A stretch of 64,000 nucleotides of DNA from a virus. Positions 28,441 through 42,624 of this stretch are shown piece after piece. Under the pieces are notes generated by a model that did not search any database, was not told where the DNA came from, and saw nothing but the letters and a program-made list of their open reading frames with translations. The stretch is taken from positions 1-64,000 of IMG/VR virus record IMGVR_UViG_3300024999_000072; one strand, 5' to 3'. Positions within the stretch are counted from its first letter, which is position 1. Each line of letters opens with the position of its first letter. A program made the translations under genes and the position numbers.

Positions 28441-29290
28441 AGATTGAATCCAACCTCGCTTTCCACGTTACAAACTCGTTAACAATCACGGTGTCGATAG
28501 GTAGGGTGGTGCTTAGATATTTGATCTTGGCCATGCCAGTCGTTTTAATAAAATCGTTAAAACTTAGTCGCCGATAGTGAGTGTCAATAACAATGTATTT
28601 TCCTTGTTTATCTATTTCGTCATAGGTTTTGACGTTATCTAGCTTGAATCGCTTGTTTCTTGCGACGTATAACTCCTCAGGGATAATTGCACATTTCTTA
28701 AGATCACCAGCGAATAGTTGCAGGGACCTCGGTATAGTATCTGGGTCCTTATTACCCAAATTATCGAAGAGTTGGTCCCGTTTTTTCGCGTATTGCTCCT
28801 TATTTTTGTCAGTGATCTCAACGTTGATTGTTTCGATCTTGACGCGGAAGGGCTTAATCTTAATATCCTCAGCTTGCAAAAATACATAATCAAAGGACTT
28901 CCCTTTGTATTTGCCTTTATTATCAAAGTCCAATAAGATCATGAAATCGTTCTTATCGGAGATGATCGGGAAGAACTCAAAGATAATCTTATGTGGAGTC
29001 TGGTTAAGATAGTGGTGAGCACAGTTGTAGATCAACTCACTTCGGTTCGCGGTCCGCATGCAGCCATCCATAATGATAAGGCATGTATTATCTATCTCTT
29101 CAAGAAGTCGGTAGAAGAACTTATACATTTCGATGTCTGCGTACTCGATGTACTCGATGTCGATTGGTACGCTGTACTTGACCGGAAACTTCTTGAAGTA
29201 GAAACAATAGACTTTTTTGATGTCGGTTGCTTGCAGATATGCGTCGATTTCCTTTTGTTTCTCACGGCTGTTTAGGCCTATTCTGATCAT
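28415..29290 (-). CDS. hypothetical protein, possibly a degenerate helicase-like partner
   Basis: Translationally coupled to the SNF2 gene; LIIMD resembles an eroded Walker B; no Walker A. Confidence 0.6.
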   Translation of the reverse strand: MIRIGLNSREKQKEIDAYLQATDIKKVYCFYFKKFPVKYSVPIDIEYIEYADIEMYKFFYRLLEEIDNTCLIIMDGCMRTANRSELIYNCAHHYLNQTPHKIIFEFFPIISDKNDFMILLDFDNKGKYKGKSFDYVFLQAEDIKIKPFRVKIETINVEITDKNKEQYAKKRDQLFDNLGNKDPDTIPRSLQLFAGDLKKCAIIPEELYVARNKRFKLDNVKTYDEIDKQGKYIVIDTHYRRLSFNDFIKTTGMAKIKYLSTTLPIDTVIVNEFVTWKARLDSIYAQASLYK

Positions 29291-30699
29291 AAACCCTTAA
29301 TCAACTCCCTAAGTTTGTTTTTATCACCTTGAGACTTCTCCACCTCCTGGCGAAACGATGCGGCGGCATTCTCCTTGTTAGACAACGCTTTATTGATCCT
29401 ATCGTCAATACTTCCGGAACAATAAATATCGATGTAAGTTACGTCATGCTCCTGGCCTATGCGGTGGTCCCGGTCCTCGGCCTGTAAACGTTCAGAGTAC
29501 TTAAACCCGTTGTTGTAAAATATGACAAAGTGCGACTCATTCAAGGTTAGGCCGTGGCCGCCACAGCTCGGGGTTGACACAAAGAACCGCGCTGGTCCTC
29601 GGAATAGTCCAACTTGTGCGGGACGGTCCTTTTCCTTGATCCCTCCATGGAATTGTGAAACAGAATCCTCGCCGTACTTATCAGACAGAGCTTTTACTAT
29701 CCCGCGTATATCATACATAAACTTGGCCCAGACAATGATCTTCTTGCCCTCAGGGATATCCGCAACCGCATCCATAAATGTCTCCATCCGGTAATGTCGG
29801 AACTCGAATAACTTCATTTTGCCCTTAACGCGGTAATTCCAGAATCCACATACGATCTCCTGCAGGGCCGTAAACATGCGGAAGATAGAAGTCGAGTTAA
29901 AATCTTCGCGGTCCAATTCGGCTAGGAATTTCTCTTTGGCTAAGTGGTATTCGTGAGCTTGTTTATCAGTCATATGGAAATATCGTGTTTCGTAGAGTTT
30001 TTTAGGGAGATCAAGACATTCCTCTTTTGTAATTTGGTAGACATACGGCTTAGTTTTAGCGGCTAGGTATGCGGTGTTGTGGCTCCTCACAATCCGACCC
30101 GGGAACTTCTCGGAATACTCAAGGTGGTTGGCAGCAAAACTGTAGAAGGAGTTATACCCGAGGATCTTGGGCGAGAGAAAACGCATCTGTGCGTAAAGGT
30201 CTACAACACCTTGGGAGAGGGGAGTGCCGGTTAGAATTAGGCGATACCTTGAGCGCGCGCTCATGGCCGTGATCCGTGTCGTGCGCTTTGAGTCGTGGCC
30301 CTTAATATAGCTCGATTCGTCCAAGATAACGAACGTTTTAGCCGTGATTAGCTTATTCGCAGCCAAGACCATGCGTGTACTACTACTCATCGACTCGATG
30401 CCGATAATATACCACAACGCCTTCGGTATTGATCGCTCCCGCGTCTTGCTCCCAAAAACGTAGATATCGGCATCGGTGCAGTCGGTGTGCTTGAGTATCT
30501 CTTGCCGCACGGTTTCTTTGAGTGATACTGGACAAAAGTAAACAACCTTGTCTATCTTATGTTGGCGACGGTAAACAATTTCGAAGGTTGTTCTCGTTTT
30601 CCCTGTCCCCATGTCCATGAAGAGTCCGCCTATGGTAGTGGGAACCATTTTTTCTACAGCCGGTACTTGGTGGGGGAGAAGGTTAGTCTTTAAATTCAT
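29287..30699 (-). CDS. SNF2-family helicase/translocase
   Basis: MDMGTGKT, LDES, LTGTP, GLTL and QAEDR.HRIGQ motifs. Confidence 0.92.
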   Translation of the reverse strand: MNLKTNLLPHQVPAVEKMVPTTIGGLFMDMGTGKTRTTFEIVYRRQHKIDKVVYFCPVSLKETVRQEILKHTDCTDADIYVFGSKTRERSIPKALWYIIGIESMSSSTRMVLAANKLITAKTFVILDESSYIKGHDSKRTTRITAMSARSRYRLILTGTPLSQGVVDLYAQMRFLSPKILGYNSFYSFAANHLEYSEKFPGRIVRSHNTAYLAAKTKPYVYQITKEECLDLPKKLYETRYFHMTDKQAHEYHLAKEKFLAELDREDFNSTSIFRMFTALQEIVCGFWNYRVKGKMKLFEFRHYRMETFMDAVADIPEGKKIIVWAKFMYDIRGIVKALSDKYGEDSVSQFHGGIKEKDRPAQVGLFRGPARFFVSTPSCGGHGLTLNESHFVIFYNNGFKYSERLQAEDRDHRIGQEHDVTYIDIYCSGSIDDRINKALSNKENAAASFRQEVEKSQGDKNKLRELIKGL

Positions 30700-31843
30700 C
30701 CAACACCTCCGTATCGTCAGGTATTTCTAGCACTGGAGCCCTGCTTGTTACAACGGCATAATCCTTTTCTTTCGGCTCCATGGCGATGCCGATAATCGAG
30801 TTATTACGCACCTCCTCTGCTCTTGTGATAACATCCCTAGCTCCGCTCGAAATCTCAAACTTATACATCTCCGCAAAGTCTAGCACCTCCGCGAAGTGCT
30901 CAGGCGAAACGACTACATTCGGCTTATCGTATTTTGCACCAGTGATGGATTTAGCTCGTCGATACAGATTTTCGTCTCGCGACCACGAAATAACGAACCA
31001 TCCGAAGTATTTACCCTCTACTACACGAGATATCCACCGTGTACATTCTGGTTTGTAGTCGGCGTTAATTGCTCTCTCGCGGATCTCAGCGTCGAAGATC
31101 CGGATGGAGAACCCTGCGTATAGGAGTTTGTTTCCGGCTTCAGCAGCGCGGTCCTCAATGGTGCCATTCTTCATCCTTATTCTTCGTTTCCATGATCCTT
31201 CGGACCATACCATGTTTAGTTCTTTTTTCACAAGTTCGCGGAAACTATCTCGTTTCTCGGGGAATCTTATTTCTAGCAGATCGTCAAGGATGCGTATTTC
31301 TGCGACAGTCTCAGTTTTCGGATTCTCCGGCCGGACGGTGGCTTCCGCAAGAATATCCTTGACAACTTCCTTAGGCGGCATAATCTCTTCATGCTTGATC
31401 GTTTCTAATTCTGCGTTTAAAAGCTTCATGACCCCTAGTGAGTCCCTAACTAAAAACCGTCGATCTATCCACCAGTGGGCTCTTGTTTTTCCCGCCTTGA
31501 TGTGTTCGATCGCATCCCGCATATTGGCTTGGGTATCAATGTGCCCTAATCGCTTATCTGCCGCAACCGAATCCATGTATGAAAGCAGTTCTATCCTGAT
31601 TGATTCGGCCCACGGAATCTGCTTCTCTGTGCCGGTTAGTGCAGGGAGATTGTTATCCTTCGCGGCTTCGGCAGCTTCTCGGTTCGCCTCTTTGCGACGG
31701 CGTTGCAGATCGACTTGGTAGCATTCGGAGCAGAGCTTGTCGGCTTCGATGTGTTCTAATTTCCATTCGCAGTCCTTAGTTTTCCCGATCAGGGCCACGG
31801 TTTCCTCGTGGCCGCAGGAGCGGGTGACGGTGTAGTTAGCCAC
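30683..31843 (-). CDS. conserved phage protein (CGH...CxxC, LP.L.G.EKQI.WA..IR)
   Basis: Recognisable N-terminal motif; overlaps the SNF2 start. Confidence 0.75.
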   Translation of the reverse strand: MANYTVTRSCGHEETVALIGKTKDCEWKLEHIEADKLCSECYQVDLQRRRKEANREAAEAAKDNNLPALTGTEKQIPWAESIRIELLSYMDSVAADKRLGHIDTQANMRDAIEHIKAGKTRAHWWIDRRFLVRDSLGVMKLLNAELETIKHEEIMPPKEVVKDILAEATVRPENPKTETVAEIRILDDLLEIRFPEKRDSFRELVKKELNMVWSEGSWKRRIRMKNGTIEDRAAEAGNKLLYAGFSIRIFDAEIRERAINADYKPECTRWISRVVEGKYFGWFVISWSRDENLYRRAKSITGAKYDKPNVVVSPEHFAEVLDFAEMYKFEISSGARDVITRAEEVRNNSIIGIAMEPKEKDYAVVTSRAPVLEIPDDTEVLDEFKD

Positions 31844-32399
31844 TGCCCCACATCCAAGCCACAAACTTGTCAGCGTCCCATCCTAGCTCATCGCACGCGT
31901 CGAAGATGGAATCCATCCAGTCGGGATGATATTCATTACCTTCGCCAACGATCTTGTCAACTGACTTGAGATACTGAGCAAATGCTTCGCGTCCTTCTTT
32001 GCCTAACTCTACGAGCTCAGGGATCGACTTGAATTTTAGTATTTCGGACATCCAAAACTTTTTACGATAGATCTCTTCCATATCGCTTGGCTTTGCATAT
32101 ACCTCGACGTGATCATAATTTCCCTCGTTCACGATCTGGTTAAAAAATACGTCAACTTGCAACATCTGATCGCTAATCGTCATGTGAGGCGCAGGTGTAA
32201 CCTTAAAGCTAGAACCATGATCAGGCGCTACTCGCTTACTTGCCCACACTTGACTAATCTCATTATCCTTAATACGGATCTCAATAGAGAATTCACCGAA
32301 AGGATATTCTCCGGTTACGACAACTGCGTAACGACCGTGGCCGAACTTAAAGTTTTTTACTGCTTCAAACGCTTCGCTGGTTAGTTCTATTAGGTTCAT
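31836..32399 (-). CDS. hypothetical protein
   Basis: AAGGAGG RBS before MNLIELT; lies downstream of the ribozyme. Confidence 0.7.
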   Translation of the reverse strand: MNLIELTSEAFEAVKNFKFGHGRYAVVVTGEYPFGEFSIEIRIKDNEISQVWASKRVAPDHGSSFKVTPAPHMTISDQMLQVDVFFNQIVNEGNYDHVEVYAKPSDMEEIYRKKFWMSEILKFKSIPELVELGKEGREAFAQYLKSVDKIVGEGNEYHPDWMDSIFDACDELGWDADKFVAWMWGSG

Positions 32400-32427
32400 G
32401 GCTTCATCCTCCTTATTTCTGGGCCTA

Positions 32428-32492
32428 TAACCCTTGAGCGCCGCACCCTTTCGGGTGGTCCTGGCTTGCACAGGACTGGGCCTAGCGGGCTA
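32428..32492 (-). ncRNA. twister-sister self-cleaving ribozyme (three-way-junction type)
   Basis: Minus strand UAGCCC-GCUAGGCC-CA-GUCCUG-UGCAAGC-CAGGAC-CACCC-GAAA-GGGUG-C-GGCGCUCA-A-GGGUUA; all stems pair; conserved GCnAGGCC, UGCAAG and GGCGCUCA elements present. Confidence 0.88.
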
Positions 32493-33101: not shown

Positions 33102-33971
33102 TCACACCTTCGTCCGTGTTTTACCAAGTTCGAACTCGTGAATCCTTGCGGTCAAAGTCTGAATCCGATCTTGGAGAGTATCGATTTTGACCGTATATTC
33201 GTCTTTAAGTTTAGCTGTTGATTCGAGCACACGATTATTGGCATCGATCCCTGCCGCATGAATCTGCAGGTCAGCCATTTTTTGCATAGAGGCCAATTCG
33301 CCGGCATGAGTCTTTTCTCTGGTTGTAATAGCTTGCTCTTTGATTTCGATCACATGGAGATGTTGAGATGATTCTGTAATGAGTTTTTCGATTTGGCGCC
33401 GAGACTCTTTGCGCTGCGCCCTAAGCTCTTGTACTTCAGCTTCCATTTCAGCCACGGTCCCGATCCGCGCCTCCAAGGTTTCGTTTTGATTTGTTAGTAG
33501 CTCGATAGTTATACGATTAGATTTATTAACGGCTTCAAGCTCGCTATTTCTCTCAGAAAGCTCTTTGAGCTGATCCTGAATTTCGGCCAAATCCAACCGA
33601 GCTTTGTCGCGCTCAACTTCAGCATGAAGACGACTCTTATCTACCTGGTCGACAATTCCTTGATGCACTCGTTTTTCTTGATCGATGCTTTCTGTGAAGT
33701 TTTCCTTCAGGTCATGAAGTTTCTGGACCATGTTTGTAAAGATTGATTCGGCATGGGATAGGTGGTAACGAAGCTGCTGCATATCCTCGGTTTGCTCAGT
33801 GTCGCTACTGGCTAATAAATTCGTTTTGAATTGTGTAACCATGGCCGCGAATAGTTCTTTTTGGCTAAGGCCAGTTACTTTTAATAGCTCGCCCACAGAT
33901 TCAGTAATGTCACTTGTGGTTTTTACCGAGTATGTAGGCGGGACTGCCTTAATTTCCTTTTCATCCGACAT
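33102..33971 (-). CDS. long coiled-coil protein with a putative N-terminal DNA-binding region (KfrA-like architecture)
   Basis: Heptad-rich 289 aa; GGAGG RBS. Confidence 0.65.
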   Translation of the reverse strand: MSDEKEIKAVPPTYSVKTTSDITESVGELLKVTGLSQKELFAAMVTQFKTNLLASSDTEQTEDMQQLRYHLSHAESIFTNMVQKLHDLKENFTESIDQEKRVHQGIVDQVDKSRLHAEVERDKARLDLAEIQDQLKELSERNSELEAVNKSNRITIELLTNQNETLEARIGTVAEMEAEVQELRAQRKESRRQIEKLITESSQHLHVIEIKEQAITTREKTHAGELASMQKMADLQIHAAGIDANNRVLESTAKLKDEYTVKIDTLQDRIQTLTARIHEFELGKTRTKV

Positions 33972-34092: not shown

Positions 34093-34151
34093 GAGCATAA
34101 AAAGACACCGGGGATTAAACCCAGTGCGATAAGGTGTTGTAAAAGGAGAGC

Positions 34152-34355
34152 TTAGCCGCTCTCCTTTTTGTTTATCCCGATCTTTATTTCGTAGACCGAC
34201 TTTTCAATCTCCCTCACCGACTCGATCAACTCCGAATTTGCCTGTCGTACACCATTCCTGACAGCCATCTTGATTAGGTAGTAGAGGAGAATGAGGGACA
34301 GGAACCATAGGCAGAGGAAGAGAAGAGTGTTAGGGAGAAGGAATGCGTCGTGCAT
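34152..34355 (-). CDS. small single-TM protein
   Basis: TM helix followed by IKMAVRNGV. Confidence 0.65.
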   Translation of the reverse strand: MHDAFLLPNTLLFLCLWFLSLILLYYLIKMAVRNGVRQANSELIESVREIEKSVYEIKIGINKKESG

Positions 34356-34378
34356 GGGATCATTCCTTTCAATAGTGG

Positions 34379-35353
34379 TTAATCATTTTGCGATATTACG
34401 CTAATCGTATCGGTCTTATAATCTGATTTAGCCGTAACGTTTTGAAGGATTAATGCCCCGAAGGCATTTTTAGCCCTGTATGTCATCTTAACGATTAAGT
34501 GGTCGCCTTTATCCGAGTATGTCGTTTTTTCGTGATCGAAGCTCTTTGGGTCGTTCAGGTTCTTTTTGAGTAAATCTACCAGATGGGTATGCGATCCATC
34601 CCAAACGCTAAATTGCCCCTTAACCCATGTCTGGTATTGCTTTTGGGTATATAGTCTTTCAAAATCCTCCTTTACCTCAGCTTTCTCGGAATCTTTTAGA
34701 TGGTTGAAATATTTGTCTTCAATTTCGGCGAAATGCTTTAATTCATCTTCAGTAAATAATTTGTATTGGCTCATAATCAATAACGCCTTATCTGAGTCTG
34801 TAATCTTAGCTGCCTCAGCTTTTTCGCGAGCTATCTGCTCAGCGGTCTTCCCTGGTTGTGAAGCTGTCTTTGGCGATGTGGCATCTTCTCCTCCGACGAT
34901 ATTTCCGATCGCGCCAAATATAACTAGATAGCCCACGATAGCTACAGCCATTTTCCACTTAGTCTTCGACCGAAAACCTAAGATTTTATTCCACCATTTT
35001 CGAGGAATTTCCTCTAAGCGTATATTGGTATTTGCTGTAATTAAAGAAGCAACTTCTTTGCCTTTTTGGTTTACCTTTAATTCATAAGTCCTGGTATCGC
35101 TTTTTAGCATAAATACTGACTGAGTAAACAAATGGTCAACGGTTGCACTTGTCCAGTTCTCCCACTTATCTTCGGACAACTTACTGGCAGACCCGTTCTT
35201 AAAATCGTACTGCTCAAATCCCGTAGCCGAAAAGACTAAATATGAATTTGACTTACCTTGAACATTCGTGACAAGCGCCGGAAAGATTCCTAACTGATTT
35301 AAATAAATCTTAAATGCGTCTATCGGTTTTTGTTGCTTCTCTTTCTTTGCCAT
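34379..35353 (-). CDS. membrane-anchored moron protein
   Basis: Cytoplasmic N-domain, GFRSKTKWKM-TM, extracellular LNDPKSF...RAKNAFG domain. Confidence 0.75.
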   Translation of the reverse strand: MAKKEKQQKPIDAFKIYLNQLGIFPALVTNVQGKSNSYLVFSATGFEQYDFKNGSASKLSEDKWENWTSATVDHLFTQSVFMLKSDTRTYELKVNQKGKEVASLITANTNIRLEEIPRKWWNKILGFRSKTKWKMAVAIVGYLVIFGAIGNIVGGEDATSPKTASQPGKTAEQIAREKAEAAKITDSDKALLIMSQYKLFTEDELKHFAEIEDKYFNHLKDSEKAEVKEDFERLYTQKQYQTWVKGQFSVWDGSHTHLVDLLKKNLNDPKSFDHEKTTYSDKGDHLIVKMTYRAKNAFGALILQNVTAKSDYKTDTISVISQND

Positions 35354-35460: not shown

Positions 35461-36147
35461 TCACAACGCCAGCAACGGCAAGAGCTTCAACAACATCAGC
35501 GCAACTCCTCCGAGTATGAGTGTGTTCCCAACTGCCTTTGCGGCTTCCGGAGTGGGGGCAGGTGCAGGGACCTCATCCCTCGGATTAACAACCGATTCGA
35601 TATCAACGTCCGTGACCAAATGATTCTTCACAGTCCCGGCAAAGTCCTCAAAGTTGCGGTTATCCCTAAAATGTCTCCCGATCTCAACTGTGATTTCATC
35701 CGTCACCCCGTGATCCGGGTCAATCGTCCGTTTGTATTTAAAAACATCTTTGTCGTATCTACCGTTATTGAGTTGGCCTTTGATCTTATTCTTCAAGTAG
35801 TTACCTATCTTATTACCAACGTTATCCAACCTACTTGCATCCATTGTTCGTGGTATACCGATGGCTATTTGTTTTCCTTTGGCTATCCTTTCCCATGTTG
35901 ATAATGGTGCGTAACCCAGTGCTGGATGATCCTCTGACCAGAACATTCCGTTGAGGGAGATGGGGTTATTTTGTGGCATTGGATAGAGATAAAACGCGAA
36001 TGGGGAAGTGTTCAGATAGGCGCTAGGGGTTGTTGCTTGTGCCATGAAGGGGTTTGATAGGGAGATGCCAACTAGAATCATCAGCGTGGCAATGGCGAGT
36101 GTACGACGAACAGTAGACTTGCGCAGGACTAAGATCATATTAATCAA
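35461..36147 (-). CDS. exported protein with a signal peptide and C-terminal TM anchor
   Basis: Basic/hydrophobic N-terminus with AQA site; Pro-rich linker; C-terminal TM. Confidence 0.7.
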   Translation of the reverse strand: MINMILVLRKSTVRRTLAIATLMILVGISLSNPFMAQATTPSAYLNTSPFAFYLYPMPQNNPISLNGMFWSEDHPALGYAPLSTWERIAKGKQIAIGIPRTMDASRLDNVGNKIGNYLKNKIKGQLNNGRYDKDVFKYKRTIDPDHGVTDEITVEIGRHFRDNRNFEDFAGTVKNHLVTDVDIESVVNPRDEVPAPAPTPEAAKAVGNTLILGGVALMLLKLLPLLAL

Positions 36148-36331
36148 CCTCCAATTTTGCCTTTAATTCTTCTAGGGATTTCAGAAGTTTCTCTATAGTT
36201 TCCCTATCTGGTGGGGAAATCCTCAAAAGAGTATTCAACTTGGCAAACATTACAATCATCTTCCAATACCATATTTCGGCAGTAATCCTACTCTTAATCA
36301 CCCCGACAATTGGTTTTTTCACGCGAAACAC
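36140..36331 (-). CDS. hypothetical protein
   Basis: Coupled between the M23 gene and the exported-protein gene. Confidence 0.55.
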   Translation of the reverse strand: MFRVKKPIVGVIKSRITAEIWYWKMIVMFAKLNTLLRISPPDRETIEKLLKSLEELKAKLEVD

Positions 36332-36332
36332 C

Positions 36333-37010
36333 TCACTTCATAAAATCTTTGGGGTCAACAGCCTTCCCTCCAATCCTAATCTCAAAATGCAGGTGAGGAC
36401 CTGTTGAATTCCCGGTAGTCCCGATCTCAGCAATCTTGTCACCGCCTAGAATCATCTTTCCCTCCGGTACTAATACCTTTGAGCAGTGGGCGTAAAGCGT
36501 TCCGTAATTATTGCCATGATCGATGATGATGTACAGCCCATAAGTACTATCTTCAGCAACTTTCTCCACCGTTCCGGGACGACTAACCCTAATCGGATCG
36601 CCTATCTTCCCAGCAATGTCCAGTCCGTGATTGTTCTCGTTGTAGCCTTGGGTAACTTTTCCCTTCACCGGCCAATCAAACTTCGCATTGCCGGTTAATC
36701 TCTCCCAAATCCCCTGATATCCTACGCTCCCGGCCGGGGAAACGGCATCTCCGATTTGCTTCTGGACCCCTTTGCTTTCGCCGAGTAAATCATTAACCTT
36801 ATCCCGTCCTTGGCTATAGGTCTGAGCGGCTACATGAATATCGTTACTGAGTTGTTTAAATGGTGCGGCTACCCCAGACAGGACCATCAACCCAAGACTA
36901 ACGACACCTAACCACTTAACGAGCATCGCCATATCTTTGCCGGCAGAATGACGAACGTATAAATAAACAACCAGATACAAGGCACTTAGCCTAACAAAAT
37001 CAGCGATCAT
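36333..37010 (-). CDS. 2-TM + M23/LytM-domain protein with a degenerate first zinc motif
   Basis: YAH and STGPHLHFE are intact; HxxxD reads NHGLD; N-terminal TM hairpin with GKDMAMLV. Confidence 0.85.
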   Translation of the reverse strand: MIADFVRLSALYLVVYLYVRHSAGKDMAMLVKWLGVVSLGLMVLSGVAAPFKQLSNDIHVAAQTYSQGRDKVNDLLGESKGVQKQIGDAVSPAGSVGYQGIWERLTGNAKFDWPVKGKVTQGYNENNHGLDIAGKIGDPIRVSRPGTVEKVAEDSTYGLYIIIDHGNNYGTLYAHCSKVLVPEGKMILGGDKIAEIGTTGNSTGPHLHFEIRIGGKAVDPKDFMK

Positions 37011-37213
37011 TTGAACACATCGCCAATCTGCTTAAGAAAACCGATAGAAGCGGCAAGGACCATTCCAGAAACAGAAATTAGCGCAAGGGTTTCAGCGTAA
37101 TAAATCCACTCAGACTTCCCGAAAACTTTAAGACCCAGCTTTATAACTTGGAGACCAACCGCAATCCCGAGTATTGAGAGGATTGGGGCTGCCGCTGAGA
37201 TTCCTGGGAACAT
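37007..37213 (-). CDS. SpoIIIAC-like small membrane protein
   Basis: 68 aa; I..I.GI...L...GK.EW.....L....MV......K.I..VF pattern matches SpoIIIAC. Confidence 0.65.
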   Translation of the reverse strand: MFPGISAAAPILSILGIAVGLQVIKLGLKVFGKSEWIYYAETLALISVSGMVLAASIGFLKQIGDVFK

Positions 37214-37923
37214 TGCGATTCCCCCTTTTTCGCGTTGTGTACGTTGAAACAAAACTTCTTGACTTCATCTAGGGTTAGGACTTCGACGAGGTACGAATAG
37301 GCCCGATCATTCTTAACGATTTTCTGAATGATGTCAGTTGGTCCATCTGTCACAATGAGGATGGTAAAATTCTGCTCCTTATTCAAGTCAATCCACCAAT
37401 GAGGACGGGCCCCTTGGGATTTCTCCTGAATAAGTTTTTTTGCCAGATCATTGTATTGCTTAATCTTCTTGAACTCATTACCGGATTCGTGCCGATTAAA
37501 TTCACAAAAGAAAGGTTTTAGTTCGGGAGTTTTGAACGTGATAAATTGATCCGGTTGGACGATGGGGAGAAATTCCTTTGGTTCGTTCTGGAAGGTTAGA
37601 TGGAACTTGCTCTCCCTGGCCCTAATGGTCATAAAGGTATAGATCCAACTCTTCCCAATGGTGTGCTCGACGTTTCTTGGGGCCTTCTCGTCAACTAACC
37701 AAAAGTAATCCTTCTCGGAAAACGATATACGATTTCCGCGCTTAATACGTTTTTTCTTAACTAGCCTCCTAGTGCAACGATGGACCATTTCCACAGATAA
37801 TCCAGCGAACTCAAGCAAATGGATTTGATCCGTGTTCAAGCAGTTGCAGCGCTCTAGGTGAGCTAGAACCCGTAAATCTCGGGAGTAGCCCTTTACGTGA
37901 CTTGCTTGACTTGTGTTGCTCAT
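37141..37923 (-). CDS. replication-relaxation (Replic_Relax) family protein
   Basis: N-terminal wHTH LNTDQI; conserved EH, PD and E.R...KIKQY; follows FtsK. Confidence 0.7.
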   Translation of the reverse strand: MSNTSQASHVKGYSRDLRVLAHLERCNCLNTDQIHLLEFAGLSVEMVHRCTRRLVKKKRIKRGNRISFSEKDYFWLVDEKAPRNVEHTIGKSWIYTFMTIRARESKFHLTFQNEPKEFLPIVQPDQFITFKTPELKPFFCEFNRHESGNEFKKIKQYNDLAKKLIQEKSQGARPHWWIDLNKEQNFTILIVTDGPTDIIQKIVKNDRAYSYLVEVLTLDEVKKFCFNVHNAKKGESQCSQESQRQPQSSQYSGLRLVSKL

Positions 37924-39175
37924 AGTCATGCACCTCGCCTTGAATATCTTCGTATGGCATAGCGAACTGGGGGAGTCTGGAAAGGAGTTCGTGGTAACGG
38001 TCGGGATCGGAAACAACAGAAGGGAAATACATAGACTGAACCTCTATCTCTTCATCCCAGTCGAATATTGCTCGGCCCTTAGCCTTCTTTGGTATGAAGG
38101 CTGCTTTGCTATTGCCTAAAATCATGTTGGAGTTCACGGTATCCTTAACCCGGTAAACGAGATTAGCGTCAAACATAGCTTTCAACTCAGGGAATGAACC
38201 GATCTTACCGAGCGCACCGGAACTAGGGCGTTGGATTGCTCCGACAGTAAATATTCCCTGAGATCTGCCAACATGGAGAAGCCGATGATAGGAGTTATAG
38301 GCATCCTTTGTTAACTCTCCCATCTCATCGCAACACAGAACGATTGCCGGCATCTTGTGCCCGATCTGAAGGAACTCCGGAAAGTTTCTTGCGCCGGTTG
38401 AATTAACAATCGGAGCCCTACGGTCGTTCTCGTCGTTAACCCACTGCAGGAGTTTTTCGATGTGATGGGGTTTTTTTGCCCACAAAAGTCCATGCTTTTC
38501 GAGATACTGAAACTCACCTAGTTTAGGATCCAGCATAACGGGTATTACACGAGGCTGTTGGTCAATGCGGTTCATACTCAGAAGGGTATAGAGGATTACG
38601 TGTTCGATGTTTGACTTCCCGCTGCCCATCATGCCAACGATGAGGAGTGTGAGCATTTCGGCAAGATCCTTGACGACAAGTCCGTTAATGGAGTAGCCCA
38701 CAGGGAAGGGGAGTAGCATACCTTTCTTGATATAGGGGGAGGGGTCGAACTCGTAGGGATAGGACTTCTTGCGGTCCACGTTACTAACTGTCATATGCAC
38801 CGCCATTCCGTGGGCTTCGATCTGACAGGTGCCATCCTCACCTAAAGCATCAGCAAAGGTCTGCTCTAAGGACTTGAACTTCTCGAAGTTGTGTCCAGGC
38901 GGGAGGTTGATCACAAAGAACCATGTTTCGTCAGAGTGGTCATCCATGGACTTGATTCGGCTTATGATCTCCTTCAGGCTCTTAGGGGCCTCCGATTTAG
39001 ATTTAGGCTCCTTGGGTTCGTCGAGTCTCTTCTCGATGATGAGGGGACGGTAATCCTCTCCGTAGACGTGGACTATGACATCGTAGATCTTGGCGGGGAT
39101 ACCGCCGCCTCGTTCTCTGCCGCGCCGCCACTGCCTCATGGCGTGGTCGTAAAGATCATGTCGTTCTGTTGTCAC
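37811..39175 (-). CDS. FtsK/SpoIIIE-family DNA translocase/coupling ATPase
   Basis: GMMGSGKS, LDPK, DEMGEL, GRSQG..AIQRP and KGRA motifs; no TM or gamma domain evident. Confidence 0.9.
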   Translation of the reverse strand: MTTERHDLYDHAMRQWRRGRERGGGIPAKIYDVIVHVYGEDYRPLIIEKRLDEPKEPKSKSEAPKSLKEIISRIKSMDDHSDETWFFVINLPPGHNFEKFKSLEQTFADALGEDGTCQIEAHGMAVHMTVSNVDRKKSYPYEFDPSPYIKKGMLLPFPVGYSINGLVVKDLAEMLTLLIVGMMGSGKSNIEHVILYTLLSMNRIDQQPRVIPVMLDPKLGEFQYLEKHGLLWAKKPHHIEKLLQWVNDENDRRAPIVNSTGARNFPEFLQIGHKMPAIVLCCDEMGELTKDAYNSYHRLLHVGRSQGIFTVGAIQRPSSGALGKIGSFPELKAMFDANLVYRVKDTVNSNMILGNSKAAFIPKKAKGRAIFDWDEEIEVQSMYFPSVVSDPDRYHELLSRLPQFAMPYEDIQGEVHDYEQHKSSKSRKGLLPRFTGSSSPRALQLLEHGSNPFA

Positions 39176-39240
39176 TTCGTTCCTCCCTTCTCTTCTTCGC
39201 GGGGTTTTGGCTAGTGTTTATGCGGTTTTTAGCTTGTTCA

Positions 39241-39348
39241 CCGTTTGATAGGGCAAACGGGCTGGAATACGGGGTGTTAAACGTTTGTGCACTCGTTTTG
39301 TATTTTGAGATGGAAAACGTTTGAAGCAGAGGGATATCAAACGTTTGG
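39241..39348. repeat. hairpin plus AAACGTTTG repeats upstream of FtsK
   Basis: CCGTTTG-ATAGGG-CAAACGG at 39241-39260; AAACGTTTG three times (about 39279, 39315, 39339). Confidence 0.6.
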
Positions 39349-39579
39349 GGCAGGATGGGTTTTGCATCGGATGAGTTCATGAGCTATGAGACGTGCATCG
39401 GCTGGGGTGATGGGGTCTGCTAGCTTACCTAACGCTCCCATCTCAGCCAACTTCAGCCGAACTCCATCCCTGACCATATCAGCCATTTCTCCTTCCTCAA
39501 GATTCAGTCTCTTTACAGCTTGTTGAATGTCTTTGTCTCGCTTACGGAGTCTTGCCTTAAGAATTGTTATGTCGCTCAT
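39337..39579 (-). CDS. RHH-like protein heading the FtsK operon
   Basis: Beta strand ILKARLR followed by helices (MADMVRDGVR); GGAGG RBS. Confidence 0.6.
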   Translation of the reverse strand: MSDITILKARLRKRDKDIQQAVKRLNLEEGEMADMVRDGVRLKLAEMGALGKLADPITPADARLIAHELIRCKTHPAPNV

Positions 39580-39627
39580 GTGTGTACCTCCTGTGCTACG
39601 TGTGTGCTTTAGCTGTGACTCAAGGGT

Positions 39628-39677
39628 GTTCCGTCTGTGTCACAAATTACCTGTTGTAATATTATTAGTAATTACCG
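39628..39677 (-). promoter_or_regulatory. candidate sigma-H-like promoter and operator of the FtsK operon
   Basis: AGGTAATTTGTGACACAGACGGAAC (39652-39628); CGGTAATTACTAATA box at 39663-39677. Confidence 0.45.
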
Positions 39678-39726
39678 ATAATTATTCGTAAACGCTAAAA
39701 AAATAAAATAAAAAAATTGGCCCAAT

Positions 39727-39927
39727 TTAATCGAGCCAATCATACCAAATATATTCGACTTTAGTGTTTAATGCTTTAGCGATTTTTAACGCTATACGAA
39801 GGGATAGATTTGGCTTTTTGTCATTAACTATTTGACTTATTTCTGATTGCCTAATACCTGTTATTTCTGAAAGCTTAGTTTGACTAACACCTTGTTTTCG
39901 TAGGATTTCCCACAACCTACTATTCAT
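39727..39927 (-). CDS. XRE-family HTH regulator
   Basis: SQTKLSEITGIRQSEISQIVN. Confidence 0.85.
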   Translation of the reverse strand: MNSRLWEILRKQGVSQTKLSEITGIRQSEISQIVNDKKPNLSLRIALKIAKALNTKVEYIWYDWLD

Positions 39928-39947
39928 ATCATCACCACAGGTAAAAT

Positions 39948-39972
39948 ATTCCATATAAATAACAGAAATCCT
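39948..39972 (-). promoter_or_regulatory. sigma-H promoter (near consensus)
   Basis: AGGATTTCTGTTATTTATATGGAAT. Confidence 0.7.
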
Positions 39973-39982
39973 TCTTTTTATT

Positions 39983-40213
39983 TTAATAATAAGGCCATAT
40001 GTAATCAACCTTACTTCCGAGGGCTCTGGCTATCTTTTGAGCGGTAGTAAGGTAAATGGCTTTCCGGTCATTAATTATTTTGCTTATGTCACTCTGGGGG
40101 ATGCCTGTTAATCTAGAAAGCTCTCTTTGTGTTATTTTATTTCTGTGCATTATTTCTTCAAGTCTATTTTTGGGTTGATACACTCTCTCATCACCGAAGT
40201 CTACTTTCGGCAA
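39983..40213 (-). CDS. XRE-family HTH regulator (paralog of 39727-39927)
   Basis: TQRELSRLTGIPQSDISKIIN. Confidence 0.85.
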   Translation of the reverse strand: MPKVDFGDERVYQPKNRLEEIMHRNKITQRELSRLTGIPQSDISKIINDRKAIYLTTAQKIARALGSKVDYIWPYY

Positions 40214-40400
40214 TCAAGGAACATTTCCTCTGAAAAATAGACGGTAATTACTAATATATGTGATAACATATCAATTGTAGTGTCGATTAATTAGCAAATT
40301 TAGCGTAAACTATGCACTTGTTTCGGGAGTCGTAATTACCAAATTCGACACGACTCAAGATGTAAGCTTATAGGTAGCATCAAGGGAATGGCATACACGA

Positions 40401-41039: not shown

Positions 41040-41230
41040 CCAGCAGGACACAAACTGGACGAAAATCCGCTTTACATGCTAGTGTCAAATTCTCCAAACG
41101 TTAATTGTGAAGAAATTACAGATCCCCCAACCATGCATGGTTGGGGGATTCCTTATTTTTTATGAACCTATAAAACCCTATAAAATTTTAGTTGCATGAC
41201 ACAAGTATGACACACTGTATGACACAAAAA
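41040..41230. other. probable attP region
   Basis: Non-coding gap at the integrase 3' end; ATGACACA three times (41196-41226); ACC(C)TATAAAA twice; perfect 28-bp palindrome at 41122-41149. Confidence 0.55.
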
Positions 41231-41232: not shown

Positions 41233-42273
41233 TTAAATCAAATCTACTGCTTTTTTTAATTCCTCAATATCTTTATGGGTGTAAACCTTGTCGGTGATAT
41301 CATTACTGGCGTGTCCCATAATTCTTTTAATACTCACCTTATTCGCGCCGGCATTATCCATTAGAGTGGCGAAGGTGTGCCTACAATCATGCGGACGATG
41401 ATCTGGCATTTCCAATTGCTCCATAATAATCTTCCATTTCTCTTCGTAGTAATTCCAATACTTCATTTGTTTGTTTTCGTGATTTACGATTAAAAACTCG
41501 TGCCCCTTATCCTTCCTCTCAGCTATATATGGGAGGATTTTTTTATTAATAGGTATGATTCGATTTTTCCCTGCTGCTGTTTTGAGGCCGCCTTTCATGG
41601 TCCTATTCTCAATGTCGATATCTGCTGTTTTTATCAAAAGTAATTCGCCAACACGTAGACCGGTATAAATCATAATCAAAGTGGTGTCTATAAAATCCAT
41701 CCTATCAACGTTATTAGTTAATAACGCAATCTCATCTTGTGTAAATGGCCTCCGGGTGCTTTCTGATTCGTTCTCTCCTATCTCGACAAATTTCGAATAG
41801 TCCTTATCTACAATATCATTTTCAAGTGCGTACTTGAAAAGCTGATTAAATAAAACTTTGATCTTTTTTAAAGTCCCGTGACCTTTCTCGCATTGGTCAA
41901 TTACGCTTTGCATGTGTGGTTTTTTGATCTCGGTGAATTTCGTATCATATAGGTCTGTAGAGTGATTATAGGCGGCATTATATCCATTTATGGTTGATTT
42001 TGAGTTTGTTTTCTTGAATTTTTCCTCCGACCATTTTCCGTAAAGCTCAGAGAAGGTAATTGCTTGATCTATAGAATATGGATTTTTATGGTATTCAGCT
42101 AAAGCAAGAAGGGCTTCTTGGCGCGTTTTAAAGTATCCGATAGGCTTGTAAAGCTGTTTAAGCTTACCTTTATCTTCGTCAAGTTCCCACCCTGTAGTGA
42201 CCCTTGCGCGGAATGGTCGTCTTCGTTTTCCTGATAACTTACTAATATTTCCGAAGCCATTGGGGTTTCTCAC
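41233..42273 (-). CDS. int: phage tyrosine integrase
   Basis: Arm-binding N-terminus RNPNGFG; TGLRVGE, KT, HDCRH, GH and Y catalytic residues. Confidence 0.95.
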   Translation of the reverse strand: MRNPNGFGNISKLSGKRRRPFRARVTTGWELDEDKGKLKQLYKPIGYFKTRQEALLALAEYHKNPYSIDQAITFSELYGKWSEEKFKKTNSKSTINGYNAAYNHSTDLYDTKFTEIKKPHMQSVIDQCEKGHGTLKKIKVLFNQLFKYALENDIVDKDYSKFVEIGENESESTRRPFTQDEIALLTNNVDRMDFIDTTLIMIYTGLRVGELLLIKTADIDIENRTMKGGLKTAAGKNRIIPINKKILPYIAERKDKGHEFLIVNHENKQMKYWNYYEEKWKIIMEQLEMPDHRPHDCRHTFATLMDNAGANKVSIKRIMGHASNDITDKVYTHKDIEELKKAVDLI

Positions 42274-42279: not shown

Positions 42280-42624
42280 TCACCCTTCTGTCATTACCTC
42301 GAGTCTACCAATAATTTTTAATTGATCTTCGTCTGGCAACTTTCTAAATAATGAAACAGCATACTGCTCTCCTTCAGATAGCCCATTGATTGGGCTATCT
42401 CTTTTTTCGCCCCTATACATTTCATCAAGAGTAATTCCTAGTAAGTCGCAAATCTCCATTAGTACTGCAGCGTCAATGGAATTTGTCCCATTCTCCCACG
42501 AAGAAATTGTATTGTGCTTAATTCCTAACTCTGCAGCCAACTGTCGCTGCGTAAGACCTTTTAAATCACGATAATACTTAAGATTTCTGGCAATGTTCTC
42601 CTTGATTTCCTTGATATCATCCAC
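42280..42624 (-). CDS. CI-like immunity repressor (HTH only, no S24 peptidase)
   Basis: LTQRQLAAELGIKHNTISSWENG; divergent from the cro-like gene. Confidence 0.85.
   Translation of the reverse strand: MDDIKEIKENIARNLKYYRDLKGLTQRQLAAELGIKHNTISSWENGTNSIDAAVLMEICDLLGITLDEMYRGEKRDSPINGLSEGEQYAVSLFRKLPDEDQLKIIGRLEVMTEG

What the first reader, a model, noticed from the sequence alone, without database searches (positions are those of the whole stretch)
35461..39677. Candidate sporulation-coupled phage DNA transfer module (FtsK + relaxase-like + SpoIIIAC-like + SpoIIQ-like LytM)
Seen: a tightly coupled leftward operon encoding an RHH protein, an FtsK/SpoIIIE ATPase without TM or gamma domain, a Replic_Relax protein, a 68-aa protein matching the SpoIIIAC pattern, a protein with a similar GK-centred TM hairpin fused to an M23/LytM domain, a small ORF and an exported TM-anchored protein. 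No VirB4 or other T4SS gene is in the window. Established: SpoIIIAA-AH and the LytM protein SpoIIQ form the mother cell-forespore complex, SpoIIIE pumps DNA into the forespore, and RHH + relaxase + coupling ATPase is the logic of conjugative DNA processing. Inference: the phage encodes a minimal nick-and-pump system that docks on or mimics the engulfment complex to move phage DNA into the forespore, or between cells. I know of no functional description of this. The candidate sigma-H promoter and the Spo0A-CTD genes fit the idea.
Basis: partly seen in the sequence, partly recalled or inferred. Interest (0 to 1): 0.9.

Follow-up and report, generated by a model that had tools for sequence, protein, structure and literature searches.

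The report
Phage DNA-pump operon with sporulation-like parts
A temperate phage of a spore-forming groundwater bacterium carries an enlarged version of a DNA pump-and-nick gene set already known from Bacillus phages, whose job has never been shown and whose small membrane proteins faintly resemble a part of the host's mother-cell-to-spore channel.

Summary
The window is the first 64 kb of an 82.6-kb tailed-phage contig from groundwater. On the minus strand lie a small conserved protein, a TM-less FtsK/TcpA-type ATPase, a wHTH + PD-(D/E)xK Replic_Relax (MOBC-like) nuclease, a 68-aa two-TM hairpin, a hairpin-anchored M23 peptidase and an exported, C-terminally anchored protein. The five-gene core is syntenic in 6 of 6 close viral contigs. 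FtsK+Replic_Relax+hairpin recurs in Bacillus phages and plasmids and in Desulfosporosinus-order genomes.

This is not new in kind. It is an enlarged variant of the phage "DNA translocation operon" (Pathria 2012). No function has been shown for that operon in the papers I found.

The SpoIIIAC resemblance fails Pfam's threshold. It holds in profile-profile comparison (probability 94%, none of 100 segment-preserving or 100 full column shuffles reached it) and recurs in two other hairpin families of such modules. The SpoIIQ label is only generic M23.

In the searches I ran, every module lay in a phage, plasmid or genome of a spore former, apart from three doubtful phage records. Those searches had little power. 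No expression or localisation data exist.

Best reading: a privately repressed nick-and-pump module that moves DNA across a membrane, destination unknown. Forespore delivery stays open at about 15%.

The parts
39983..40213 (-). Xre/Cro-type HTH gene (76 aa), first of two regulators upstream of the operon
   Evidence: PF13443 E 2.6e-11, PF01381 E 8.7e-11.
39727..40008 (-). Second Xre-type HTH gene (93-aa ORF; the real start is probably later), followed by a terminator-like hairpin at 39715-39741
   Evidence: PF01381 E 2.2e-11. Terminator scan. Desulfosporosinus loci L088 and L090 also have an Xre HTH gene upstream of the p80 homologue.
39663..39687 (.). Operator-like 25-nt arm containing the palindrome GTAATTAC; its partner arm is at 40232-40256 and a third palindrome copy is at 40332-40339
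   Evidence: Three of the window's 4 GTAATTAC copies lie at 39668, 40244 and 40332. Chance expectation is 0.92, and 0 of 100 shuffles reach 4. The inverted repeat is 84% complementary.
39628..39652 (-). Promoter-like element AGGTAAT-N14-GAAC, 73 nt upstream of the p80 ATG
   Evidence: AACAGGTAATTTGTGACAC is identical in Desulfosporosinus loci L088 and L090. AGGAAT-like -35 halves are seen in L013, L017 and L028. The -10 half is not conserved. The sigma factor is not determined.
   Evidence: Homologues directly upstream of FtsK in 11 other loci, plus 3 of 12 loci. No Pfam or PDB match. RHH is inferred from the sequence pattern only.
39241..39347 (.). Cis-element cluster between p80 and FtsK: hairpin CCGTTTG-N6-CAAACGG (39241-39260) and three CAAACGTTT palindromes (39278-39287, 39314-39323, 39338-39347); candidate operator or transfer origin
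   Evidence: CGTTTG-N4-8-CAAACG occurs once in the 82.6-kb genome. Of its 6 occurrences in 1.36 Mb of loci, 5 lie about 100 nt upstream of FtsK, in L004, L005, L006, L007 and L009. Function is inferred.
37811..39175 (-). FtsK/TcpA-type ATPase, 454 aa, without TM or gamma domain
   Evidence: PF01580 E 2.5e-10; phrog_1358 E 1.6e-37. The profile's best solved relatives are 6o1z/6o1x/6o1w 'DNA translocase coupling protein' (E 4e-33), then FtsK 2ius (E 7e-31). It is the only FtsK_SpoIIIE match in the genome.
37141..37929 (-). Replic_Relax (MOBC-like) protein, 262 aa from the ATG at 37929: wHTH + PD-(D/E)xK nuclease
   Evidence: PF13814 E 1e-4, 22.9 bits, under the 25.3 cut-off. Residues R17, D18, H89, D127, E143 and K155 are invariant in 28 of 28 sequences. 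AF2 pLDDT 88.7; Foldseek top hit FokI E 8.9e-5, plus MarR-type wHTH hits.
37007..37213 (-). s68, a 68-aa two-TM hairpin with a GKSE turn; remote SpoIIIAC/AD-like
   Evidence: hhalign probability 94.2 against SpoIIIAC; 0 of 100 segment-preserving shuffles and 0 of 100 full column shuffles reach its score; reversed sequence scores 14.7. It tops a background of 156 natural two-TM ORFs. Family member P0021 hits PF06686 at E 6.3e-4, under the cut-off. Only 5 clusters were found among 1.84 billion representatives.
36333..37010 (-). Two-TM hairpin + M23/LytM peptidase (225 aa); the first Zn-ligand His is replaced by Asn in this copy
   Evidence: PF01551 E 1.6e-29. N-terminus against SpoIIIAC: probability 88.8-91.2, and 0 of 80 block shuffles reach it. 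The motif is NNHGLD here (ENNHGLD in L004 and L006, EHNHGLD in L005) against HHG[IVL]D in the other 14 of 18 aligned relatives.
36140..36331 (-). 63-aa ORF, doubtful gene
   Evidence: A homologue exists only in L010. No family match.
35461..36147 (-). p228: exported protein with N-terminal signal/TM, an alpha/beta domain, a Pro-rich linker and a C-terminal TM anchor
   Evidence: Conserved in 7 other loci. No family in Pfam, PHROGs, NCBIfam or PADLOC. AF2 pLDDT 49.6, unusable.
34152..35353 (-). p324 (bitopic membrane protein) and a 67-aa TM protein; probably the distal end of the same transcription unit, with a terminator-like site at 34105-34127
   Evidence: p324 follows the module in L010 and L090. 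PHROGs of unknown function. Terminator scan.

Best explanation
This is an enlarged, Clostridia-type variant of the phage 'DNA translocation operon', that is, the FtsK + Replic_Relax + membrane-hairpin cassette of Bacillus phages and plasmid-prophages.

Proposed mechanism (inferred; no step has been shown experimentally):
1. The wHTH + PD-(D/E)xK protein binds a specific site in phage DNA and cuts or nicks it. The conserved hairpin and palindrome cluster just upstream of the FtsK gene is a candidate for that site.
2. The soluble TcpA/FtsK-type hexameric ATPase is held at the membrane by the small hairpin protein(s) and pumps the DNA.
3. The hairpin-anchored M23 domain and the exported, C-anchored p228 act on or span the cell wall at that spot.
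4. The unit is kept off by its own Xre-type repressor through GTAATTAC operators, apart from the phage's main CI/Cro switch.

The phage has no VirB4 or other T4SS parts. The conduit is therefore either this minimal set or borrowed from the host or a co-resident element. The destination (a neighbouring cell or the forespore) is not resolved.
For: DOMAIN CONTENT.. The closest solved relative of the ATPase is a conjugative 'DNA translocase coupling protein' (6o1w-z, E 4e-33). PF13814 is the MobC relaxase superfamily according to Coluzzi 2017 (PMC5357655, passages).

PUBLISHED PRECEDENT. Pathria 2012 reached the same reading for the 0305phi8-36, SPO1, GBSV1 and Gamma cassettes, including the need for separate membrane anchors.

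CONSERVATION.
- Five-gene synteny in 6 of 6 close loci.
- FtsK next to Rlx in 78 of 103 sources and in 12 of 12 Desulfosporosinus-order loci, 10 of which also have M23.
- A two-TM hairpin ORF sits either upstream of FtsK (Bacillus type) or between Rlx and M23.
- M23 catalytic motifs are intact in most relatives, as expected for a wall-opening enzyme.

REGULATION AND CIS ELEMENTS. Private operator and repressor. A clade-conserved cis element upstream of FtsK.
Against: - No transfer apparatus (VirB4) is present in the genome.
- The ATPase has no TM segment.
- In streptococcal IMEs, TcpA-type coupling proteins were never paired with MobC relaxases.
- Deleting the homologous operon of 0305phi8-36 gave no growth defect in the laboratory, so nothing is known about when it acts.
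- Nuclease or nicking activity has never been shown for this phage subfamily in the papers I found.
- This copy's M23 lacks the first Zn-ligand His.
- p228 and p80 have no recognisable family.
- RefSeq and one paper label the cassette as replication/segregation.
Confidence: 0.5

Rival explanations
1. Forespore delivery. The module is switched on in sporulating cells. It uses SpoIIIAC/AD-like hairpins and the M23 protein to sit at the septal or engulfing membrane, and it pumps phage DNA into the forespore so that the phage survives inside the spore.
For: REMOTE SpoIIIAC LIKENESS.
- s68: probability 94.2.
- M23 N-terminus: 88.8-91.2.
- Bacillus-type upstream hairpins: 87.7.
- Sub-threshold PF06686 hits for L036, L029 and P0021.
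- Non-module hairpins score low.

HOST DISTRIBUTION.
- Phage records with the Bacillus-type Rlx: 26, namely Bacillus 20, Geobacillus 2, Cytobacillus 1, plus three doubtful records.
- Plasmids: 347 records; every genus listed (345 of them) is a spore-forming Bacillales genus, and 2 records were not shown.
- 18 of 103 genomes of the Desulfosporosinus order carry it.
- 8 of 8 positive genomes in a 401-genome sample carry spoIIIAC/AD.
- FtsK hits in Enterococcus, faecal and mycobacterial phages lack Rlx.

CONTEXT.
- The phage has two Spo0A_C genes.
- The upstream element is sigma-H-like, and three sister loci have a CATACC -10-like box.
- The cassette also occurs in strictly lytic Bacillus phages.
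Against: - Pfam's own SpoIIIAC model does not reach its threshold on any module hairpin.
- Two positional-analogue hairpin families show nothing: probabilities 9 and 1.
- The three SpoIIIAC-like families do not resemble each other.
- M23 is generic; the SpoIIQ model scores 63.6 against 250.
- 8 of 8 against a background of 52 of 61 is not significant.
- The BLAST surveys start from a Bacillus query and cannot see distant relatives.
- 0 of 299 scored genomes in the Bacilli sample, spore formers included, so that survey has no power.
- The sigma assignment is untested.
- A private Xre repressor suggests another trigger.
Confidence: 0.15
2. Episome maintenance. The pair works in plasmid-like replication, dimer resolution or segregation of the phage genome, with Rlx as initiator or site-specific nuclease and FtsK as DNA motor. 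The membrane genes are unrelated passengers.
For: - RefSeq names the Bacillus-phage Rlx 'replication initiation protein'.
- Papers place the cassette among plasmid replication/segregation genes, next to parABS/repA in RBClin15.
- Sister loci L004-L008 carry a ParM-like gene about 1 kb upstream.
- Many hits lie on plasmids and plasmid-prophages.
- Pfam's family name is 'replication-relaxation'.
Against: - The hairpin gene always accompanies the pair, and M23 and p228 are translationally coupled to it. That is hard to explain for a cytoplasmic replication function.
- This phage integrates (integrase at 41233-42273) and has its own DNA helicase block.
- The ATPase lacks the gamma domain that activates Xer recombination.
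- The only small 'plasmid' carrying just the cassette (pBP01R2f) is a linear record that ends inside a gene.
- The annotations are automatic, not experimental.
Confidence: 0.15
3. Exclusion or defence. A membrane-tethered motor plus nuclease expressed from the prophage destroys or expels incoming foreign DNA, as superinfection exclusion or anti-plasmid defence.
For: - Position at a prophage end beside the lysogeny genes, with its own repressor.
- ATPase + PD-(D/E)xK nuclease pairs are common in defence systems (own knowledge).
- The neighbouring SNF2/PAPS-reductase/methylase block looks defence- or anti-defence-like.
Against: - No PADLOC model matches except a generic FtsK-domain hit to SspH; the nuclease, the hairpin and M23 have none.
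- The cassette also occurs in strictly lytic phages.
- A secreted peptidase and an anchored surface protein are not explained.
Confidence: 0.08

Closest known systems
Phage 'DNA translocation operon' (0305phi8-36 orf200-207; SPO1 gp27.3/27.4; GBSV1; Gamma/Wbeta/Cherry/Fah), Pathria et al. 2012, PMC3357382
   Same: A MobC(CloDF13)/Replic_Relax-type relaxase-like gene lies next to a TM-less translocase ATPase, with separate membrane proteins, in tailed phages of spore-forming Firmicutes. Function unknown. (Passages read.)
   Different: - Here the ATPase is FtsK/TcpA-type; 0305phi8-36 orf201 was described as VirD4/TraG-like.
- The gene order is ATPase then nuclease.
- The hairpin follows the nuclease.
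- A hairpin-anchored M23 peptidase and an exported C-anchored protein are added.
- The host is a Desulfosporosinus-like clostridial lineage, not Bacillus.
Hairpin-FtsK/SpoIIIE-Replic_Relax cassette of Bacillus temperate phages and plasmid-prophages (BtCS33 ORF21-23, phiCM3, PfEFR-4/5, 268TH007, Priestia pG5MAi6_3)
   Same: The same three families are linked by one iterated profile. The position is beside the lysis and lysogeny modules. Small HTH regulators sit upstream.
   Different: - Only 21-28% identity.
- The Bacillus forms stop after Rlx: none of the Bacillus-type loci has M23 or p228.
- Their hairpin gene precedes FtsK.
TcpA-type coupling proteins with mobilisation modules of Firmicute ICEs and IMEs (Coluzzi 2017, PMC5357655; solved chains 6o1w-6o1z; I recall these as pCW3 TcpA, a name not given by the tool)
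   Same: A single FtsK_SpoIIIE motor, closest by profile to that solved coupling protein. The compact coupling-protein + relaxase + integrase layout.
   Different: - In streptococcal IMEs, TcpA was found only with RCR-type relaxases, never with MobC/PF13814.
- No N-terminal TM helices here.
- No T4SS in the genome.
- The carrier is a complete tailed phage.
SpoIIIA-SpoIIQ channel and SpoIIIE of endospore formers (Doan 2009, PMC2703783, passages)
   Same: Small two-TM hairpins with a charged G-K/R-x-E turn resemble SpoIIIAC/AD at profile level. A membrane-anchored LytM-fold protein and an FtsK-family DNA pump are present.
   Different: - No hairpin reaches Pfam's SpoIIIAC threshold.
- No SpoIIIAA, AB, AE, AF, AG or AH counterparts.
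- The M23 domain is generic and catalytically intact in most relatives.
- The ATPase lacks SpoIIIE's membrane domain.
- The genes are phage-borne.
Streptomyces TraB-type double-stranded DNA conjugation (recalled, not checked here)
   Same: An FtsK-like motor as the main transfer protein, without a VirB4-type T4SS.
   Different: - TraB has its own TM and DNA-recognition domains and needs no relaxase.
- NCBIfam plasmid_TraB scores only 23.6 bits against a cut-off of 800.

Membership tests
Phage DNA translocation operon / FtsK-Replic_Relax cassette | Relaxase-like Replic_Relax/MobC-type gene directly adjacent to a translocase ATPase gene | tested here: met
   Overlapping genes at 37811-39175 and 37141-37929. 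The same adjacency holds in 78 of 103 sources and in 12 of 12 loci.
Phage DNA translocation operon / FtsK-Replic_Relax cassette | ATPase without TM segment, plus separate membrane protein(s) in the operon | tested here: met
   No hydrophobic stretch in the 454-aa protein (sequence). Hairpin ORFs.
Phage DNA translocation operon / FtsK-Replic_Relax cassette | Carried by a tailed phage of Firmicutes | tested here: met
   An 82.6-kb virus record. The closest cellular relatives are Desulfosporosinus.
MOBC relaxase / Replic_Relax (PF13814) | Score at or above Pfam's gathering threshold | tested here: not met
   22.9 bits against 25.3.
MOBC relaxase / Replic_Relax (PF13814) | N-terminal wHTH + C-terminal PD-(D/E)xK fold with conserved acidic and Lys residues | tested here: met
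   D127, E143, K155 and H89 invariant in 28 of 28 sequences. AF2 pLDDT 88.7; FokI, Mus81, McrC and MarR matches.
MOBC relaxase / Replic_Relax (PF13814) | Site-specific nicking at an oriT | not testable with these tools
   Only a candidate site at 39241-39347.
TcpA/FtsK-type conjugative coupling protein | FtsK_SpoIIIE motor with Walker A/B | tested here: met
TcpA/FtsK-type conjugative coupling protein | N-terminal TM anchor (recalled as typical of TcpA/ConQ) | tested here: not met
   No hydrophobic segment in residues 1-150 (sequence).
TcpA/FtsK-type conjugative coupling protein | Cognate T4SS (VirB4-type ATPase) in the same element | tested here: not met
   PF12846: 0 matches in the 82.6-kb genome. 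Only this one T4SS family was searched.
SpoIIIAC/AD family (PF06686) | Score at or above Pfam's gathering threshold (24 bits) | tested here: not met
   No hit for s68 or the M23 N-terminus at E<=10. Positive control: 3 hits per genome in Desulfosporosinus.
SpoIIIAC/AD family (PF06686) | Profile-profile similarity over the whole hairpin, above null controls | tested here: met
   Probability 94.2 and score 38.7, against a shuffle maximum of 22.8 and a reversed-sequence score of 14.7. Extended family: 90.4.
SpoIIIAC/AD family (PF06686) | Encoded in a spoIIIA operon with AA, AB and AE-AH | tested here: not met
   The neighbours are Rlx and M23.
SpoIIQ | Matches the SpoIIQ model above its cut-off | tested here: not met
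   NF053738: 63.6 bits against 250, eighth of 14 M23 models. That model is built for Bacillus cereus-type SpoIIQ.
SpoIIQ | Degenerate LytM active site (recalled for B. subtilis SpoIIQ) | tested here: inconclusive
   The first His is Asn here and in L004-L006. It is canonical in the other 14 of 18 aligned relatives, and the other motifs are intact.
RHH (CopG/Arc/MetJ) for p80 | Match to an RHH family or structure | tested here: not met
   0 Pfam families for 7 of 7 members. No PDB profile match better than E 1.6.

The most novel reading that the evidence does not exclude
The FtsK-Replic_Relax-hairpin cassette, in this enlarged form, is a phage-built forespore-entry machine. Diverged SpoIIIAC/AD paralogues and a LytM protein plug a phage DNA pump into (or imitate) the mother-cell-to-forespore channel. 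The nuclease prepares the phage genome, which is then pumped into the spore. This would make spore entrapment an active, phage-encoded process shared by phages of Bacilli and Clostridia.
Probability: 0.15. Interest if true: 0.9.

Novelty: new variant of a known kind. Interest (0 to 1): 0.6.

Why it matters
The FtsK + Replic_Relax cassette is widespread. It lay next to the ATPase in 78 of 103 sources examined, in 347 plasmid records and in 18 of 103 genomes of one clostridial order. It has been noticed since 2006-2012. In every paper my searches found (18, 19, 39, 41), no function has been shown for it.

This variant adds the parts that a membrane- and wall-crossing device would need: hairpin anchors, a peptidase and a surface-anchored protein. 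That argues against a purely cytoplasmic replication role.

The reproducible, though sub-threshold, likeness of three hairpin families to SpoIIIAC/AD, together with the restriction to spore formers seen so far, turns a long-standing guess into a concrete, testable hypothesis in tractable Bacillus phages. The guess is that phage FtsK has something to do with sporulation.

If the module instead moves phage genomes between cells without particles, that would be a new route of phage spread.

Tried and rejected
SEARCHES AND MODELS THAT GAVE NOTHING
- DNA-level searches of the operon against phages and plasmids: no match.
- tblastn of the window's Rlx against phages: no match; the protein is too divergent.
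- A single-protein scan of genome contigs found nothing; the alignment scan worked.
- p228: AF2 model pLDDT 49.6, not used for fold search. The Atlas gave only low-TM matches on a poor model.
- p324: the Atlas gave one unnamed cluster at 0.75.
- Complex prediction of FtsK with s68: no verdict, score 0.00. I do not count it either way.
- The look-up of sequencing runs: 4 groundwater DNA runs of one study, possibly the source itself; no RNA holder listed.
- PADLOC: no defence system.
- The TrbC/VirB2 label used in a paper and in an earlier scan note for the Bacillus-type hairpin: 0 of 10 hairpin sequences hit a TrbC/VirB2 family at E<=10.

IDEAS SET ASIDE
- Tectivirus-like packaging ATPase: the cassette sits in ordinary siphovirus-type genomes together with a nuclease.
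- A foreign IME inserted in the phage: not supported. The cassette holds the same position in many phages.

SURVEYS WITHOUT POWER
- Spore-former restriction: 0 of 299 scored Bacilli-phylum genomes, with 2 more not scored. This has no power.
- 8 of 8 positives with spoIIIAC/AD against 52 of 61 background is not significant.

LIMITS
- The small plasmid pBP01R2f looked at first like a replicon made only of the cassette. The record is linear and ends inside a gene.
- Supplementary files of papers were not opened. They may hold gene tables of the cited phages.

Full report
WHAT THE DNA IS

The window is bases 1-64000 of a single 82,601-base contig that the tools class as a virus record, about 85% complete. 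Plus-strand structural and early blocks flank a minus-strand block at 20.4-42.6 kb. That block holds:
- two tyrosine recombinases (20912-21916 and 41233-42273);
- a CI-like repressor (42280-42624);
- an SNF2/PAPS-reductase/methylase operon;
- the operon in question.

The contig is held by groundwater metagenome runs of one study, and no RNA run is listed.

THE OBSERVATION

- ATPase: FtsK_SpoIIIE (PF01580 E 2.5e-10; phrog_1358 E 1.6e-37). Walker A and B are conserved in 13 of 13 relatives. It has no TM segment and no gamma-domain hit.
- ATPase, closest solved structures: the family profile's best matches are 6o1z/6o1x/6o1w, 'DNA translocase coupling protein' (E about 4e-33), just ahead of FtsK (2ius, E 7e-31). 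I recall these entries as TcpA of pCW3; the tool does not say so.
- Next gene: it overlaps the ATPase gene by 119 nt and scores 22.9 bits on Replic_Relax, under the 25.3 cut-off. An iterated profile started from it collects 80 ORFs in 78 of 103 sources. These include proteins annotated 'replication-relaxation family' in Priestia and Bacillus records.
- Same gene, conserved residues: in an alignment of 28 representatives, R17, D18, F41, L56, H89, D127, E143 and K155 are invariant.
- Same gene, fold: the AF2 model (pLDDT 88.7) has a MarR-like wHTH followed by a PD-(D/E)xK domain. FokI is the best fold match at E 8.9e-5.
- Family meaning: PF13814 is the MobC relaxase superfamily in CONJscan terms (Coluzzi 2017, PMC5357655, passages). 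It was assigned to the PD-(D/E)xK fold by Steczkiewicz 2012 (PMC3424549, passages).
- M23 domain: solid (E 1.6e-29).
- 228-aa protein: a signal-like N-terminus and a C-terminal TM anchor, but no family and no usable model.
- 'RHH' label of the 80-aa protein: I could not confirm it.
- T4SS: no VirB4-type AAA_10 in the whole genome.

CONSERVATION AND HOST

Six IMG/VR contigs carry FtsK-Rlx-s68-M23-p228 in the same order, at 40-74% identity. A profile scan brought 80 viral loci and 16 genome loci. The best genome loci are four Desulfosporosinus contigs at 35-39% identity.

With the Rlx profile:
- 18 of 103 genomes in the order of Desulfosporosinus sp. OT have a match;
- all 12 loci fetched there have FtsK next to Rlx, and 10 of the 12 have M23 downstream.

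The host is therefore probably a Desulfosporosinus-like spore former, and the M23-bearing form is the usual form in that lineage. Bacillus-type loci stop after Rlx.

THE HAIRPINS

Every form of the module has a small two-TM protein.
- In the Desulfosporosinus type, it is a 78-aa ORF between Rlx and M23.
- In Bacillus types, it is a 67-aa or roughly 105-aa ORF just upstream of FtsK.
- In this clade, it is s68.

Pfam's SpoIIIAC model finds nothing in the phage at E<=10. As a positive control it finds three genes per genome in Desulfosporosinus, and it hits 52 of 61 genomes of that phylum.

Profile-profile comparison with 30 SpoIIIAC proteins taken from those genomes gives the following.

| Hairpin family | hhalign probability | Score | Controls |
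|---|---|---|---|
| s68 | 94.2 | 38.7 (58 columns, 26% identity) | reversed 14.7; segment-preserving shuffles mean 11.8, maximum 22.8, 0 of 100 reach it; full column shuffles maximum 18.8, 0 of 100 |
| M23 N-terminal hairpin | 88.8-91.2 | 35.3 (34.1 on the first 70 columns) | 0 of 80 block shuffles reach it |
| 67-aa Bacillus-type family (14 sequences) | 87.7 | 32.5 | 0 of 80 block shuffles reach it |
| 78-aa family | 9 | - | - |
| 105-aa family | 1 | - | - |

Further points:
- Among 156 natural two-TM small ORFs from my loci, the ten best scorers against SpoIIIAC all lie in FtsK-Rlx modules: six s68-family ORFs, two Bacillus-type upstream hairpins (L036, L033) and two ORFs beside Rlx in L029. 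The median score is 10.5.
- HMMER gives sub-threshold PF06686 hits for L036 (E 2.8e-4), L029 (E 0.02) and P0021 (E 6.3e-4). P0021 is a distant s68 relative.
- None of 10 hairpins hits TrbC/VirB2.
- The three SpoIIIAC-like families do not resemble each other.
- The s68 family is rare: 5 clusters among 1.84 billion representatives.

My reading is that the likeness is real but remote. It is either distant homology or convergence on a hairpin with a charged cytoplasmic turn. It does not amount to family membership.

M23 AND SpoIIQ

The SpoIIQ model scores 63.6 bits against a cut-off of 250 and ranks eighth among 14 M23 models. In this copy, and in L004-L006, the first Zn-ligand His is Asn (NNHGLD). 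The other 14 of 18 aligned relatives have HHG[IVL]D, and the remaining motifs are intact. As a family this is an ordinary, probably active, endopeptidase.

REGULATION AND CIS ELEMENTS

- Two Xre-type HTH genes lie upstream on the same strand. A terminator-like hairpin separates them from p80.
- Three of the window's four GTAATTAC palindromes lie at 39668, 40244 and 40332. The chance expectation is 0.92. They sit within a 25-nt inverted repeat. This points to a private repressor-operator pair.
Its first half (AACAGGTAATTTGTGACAC) is identical in two Desulfosporosinus loci. The -10 half is not conserved. Three sister loci instead show a CATACC box. A sporulation sigma is possible but not shown.
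- Between p80 and FtsK lie three CAAACGTTT palindromes and the hairpin CCGTTTG-N6-CAAACGG.
- That hairpin motif is unique in the 82.6-kb genome. It accounts for 5 of its 6 occurrences in 1.36 Mb of loci, always about 100 nt upstream of FtsK in the closest relatives. It is a candidate operator or transfer origin.

WHAT IS KNOWN

- Pathria et al. 2012 (PMC3357382, passages) described a 'DNA translocation operon' in 0305phi8-36, made of a relaxase, a TM-less translocase and membrane anchors. They noted homologues in SPO1, GBSV1 and the Gamma/Wbeta group. They found no growth defect on deletion and speculated on cell-to-cell DNA transfer in biofilms.
- Reviews and genome papers on gamma-like phages guess at a sporulation role for the FtsK gene (PMC4113786 and PMC3359378, passages).
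- Others file the cassette under plasmid replication or segregation (PMC9658697 and PMC11526630, passages).
- My searches found no experiment on function. The library lacks most subscription journals.
- Three earlier notes of this scan describe the same module on other genomes. One of them led me to the Pathria paper.

DISTRIBUTION

- Bacillus-type Rlx by tblastn, phages: 26 records. They are Bacillus 20, Geobacillus 2, Cytobacillus 1, Staphylococcus 2 and Stenotrophomonas 1. The two Staphylococcus records are SpaA1, 100% identical to Bacillus phage BceA1. The Stenotrophomonas record is TS-12, 68.7% identical to B. cereus phages.
- Bacillus-type Rlx by tblastn, plasmids: 347 records. Every genus listed is a spore-forming Bacillales genus; 2 records were not shown.
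- FtsK hits in an Enterococcus phage, a faecal phage and a mycobacteriophage have no Rlx.
- In a 401-genome sample of the clostridial phylum, 8 genomes are positive. All 8 carry spoIIIAC/AD, against 52 of 61 in the background. This is not significant.
- A 299-genome Bacilli sample gave no hit at all, so it tells nothing.

The pattern fits a link with sporulation, but the evidence is weak.

VERDICT

The finding is a real and well-conserved operon. It is a new, enlarged variant of a known but functionally unsolved phage module.
- The nick-and-pump logic is supported by domains, fold and synteny.
- The membrane and wall parts argue for transport across the envelope.
- The forespore destination is an attractive minority reading with suggestive, indirect support.

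My odds:
- Transport across a membrane, destination open: about 0.5.
- Forespore delivery specifically: about 0.15.
- Episome maintenance: 0.15.
- Defence: 0.08.
- The remainder is something not yet thought of.

Noticed in passing
window 50535-51189 (+): Two tandem ORFs each match the Spo0A C-terminal domain above Pfam's cut-off (59.4 and 59.8 bits). These are receiver-less Spo0A effector domains in the phage's early region.
   Followed up: partly
window 25587-32471 (-): An operon with an SNF2 helicase (ZorD/DpdE-like in PADLOC, E 1.5e-32), a PAPS-reductase + DUF3440 protein, an N6/N4 methylase and unknown genes. It looks like a DNA-modification or anti-defence block. A second PAPS-reductase-like gene and a methyltransferase lie at 59625-61986.
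   Followed up: partly
window 20912-21916 (-): A second tyrosine recombinase, with an N-terminal SAM-like domain (XerC/D-like, E 8e-35), lies at the other end of the minus-strand block. It is far from the integrase at 41233-42273.
   Followed up: no
L004-L008, about 330-410 nt upstream of the FtsK start (about 6590-6680 in L004): A conserved 28-aa very hydrophobic ORF (MALIGV...SGSSLVIAC...) with a good ribosome-binding site, in the five close relatives but not in the window. It looks like a type I toxin.
   Followed up: no
L004 5147-6115 (-): A ParM/actin-like gene lies about 1 kb upstream of the FtsK operon in a sister phage. This suggests that some relatives live as plasmid-prophages, whereas this phage has an integrase.
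   Followed up: no
window 41110-41161: A strong bidirectional terminator-like palindrome (13-bp stem, 7 GC pairs) between the integrase gene and the regulator region. It may mark the attP-proximal end of the lysogeny unit.
   Followed up: no
window 33102-33971 (-): A 289-aa coiled-coil protein with weak SMC/JetC-like matches. It has its own promoter-like site and terminator, and it is conserved after the module in L010 and upstream of it in L004 and L008.
   Followed up: no
phage records HE614281/NC_018277 and MW302330: 'Staphylococcus phage SpaA1' carries an Rlx 100% identical to that of Bacillus phage BceA1. 'Stenotrophomonas phage TS-12' carries one 68.7% identical to B. cereus phages. The host labels of these records look doubtful.
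   Followed up: no
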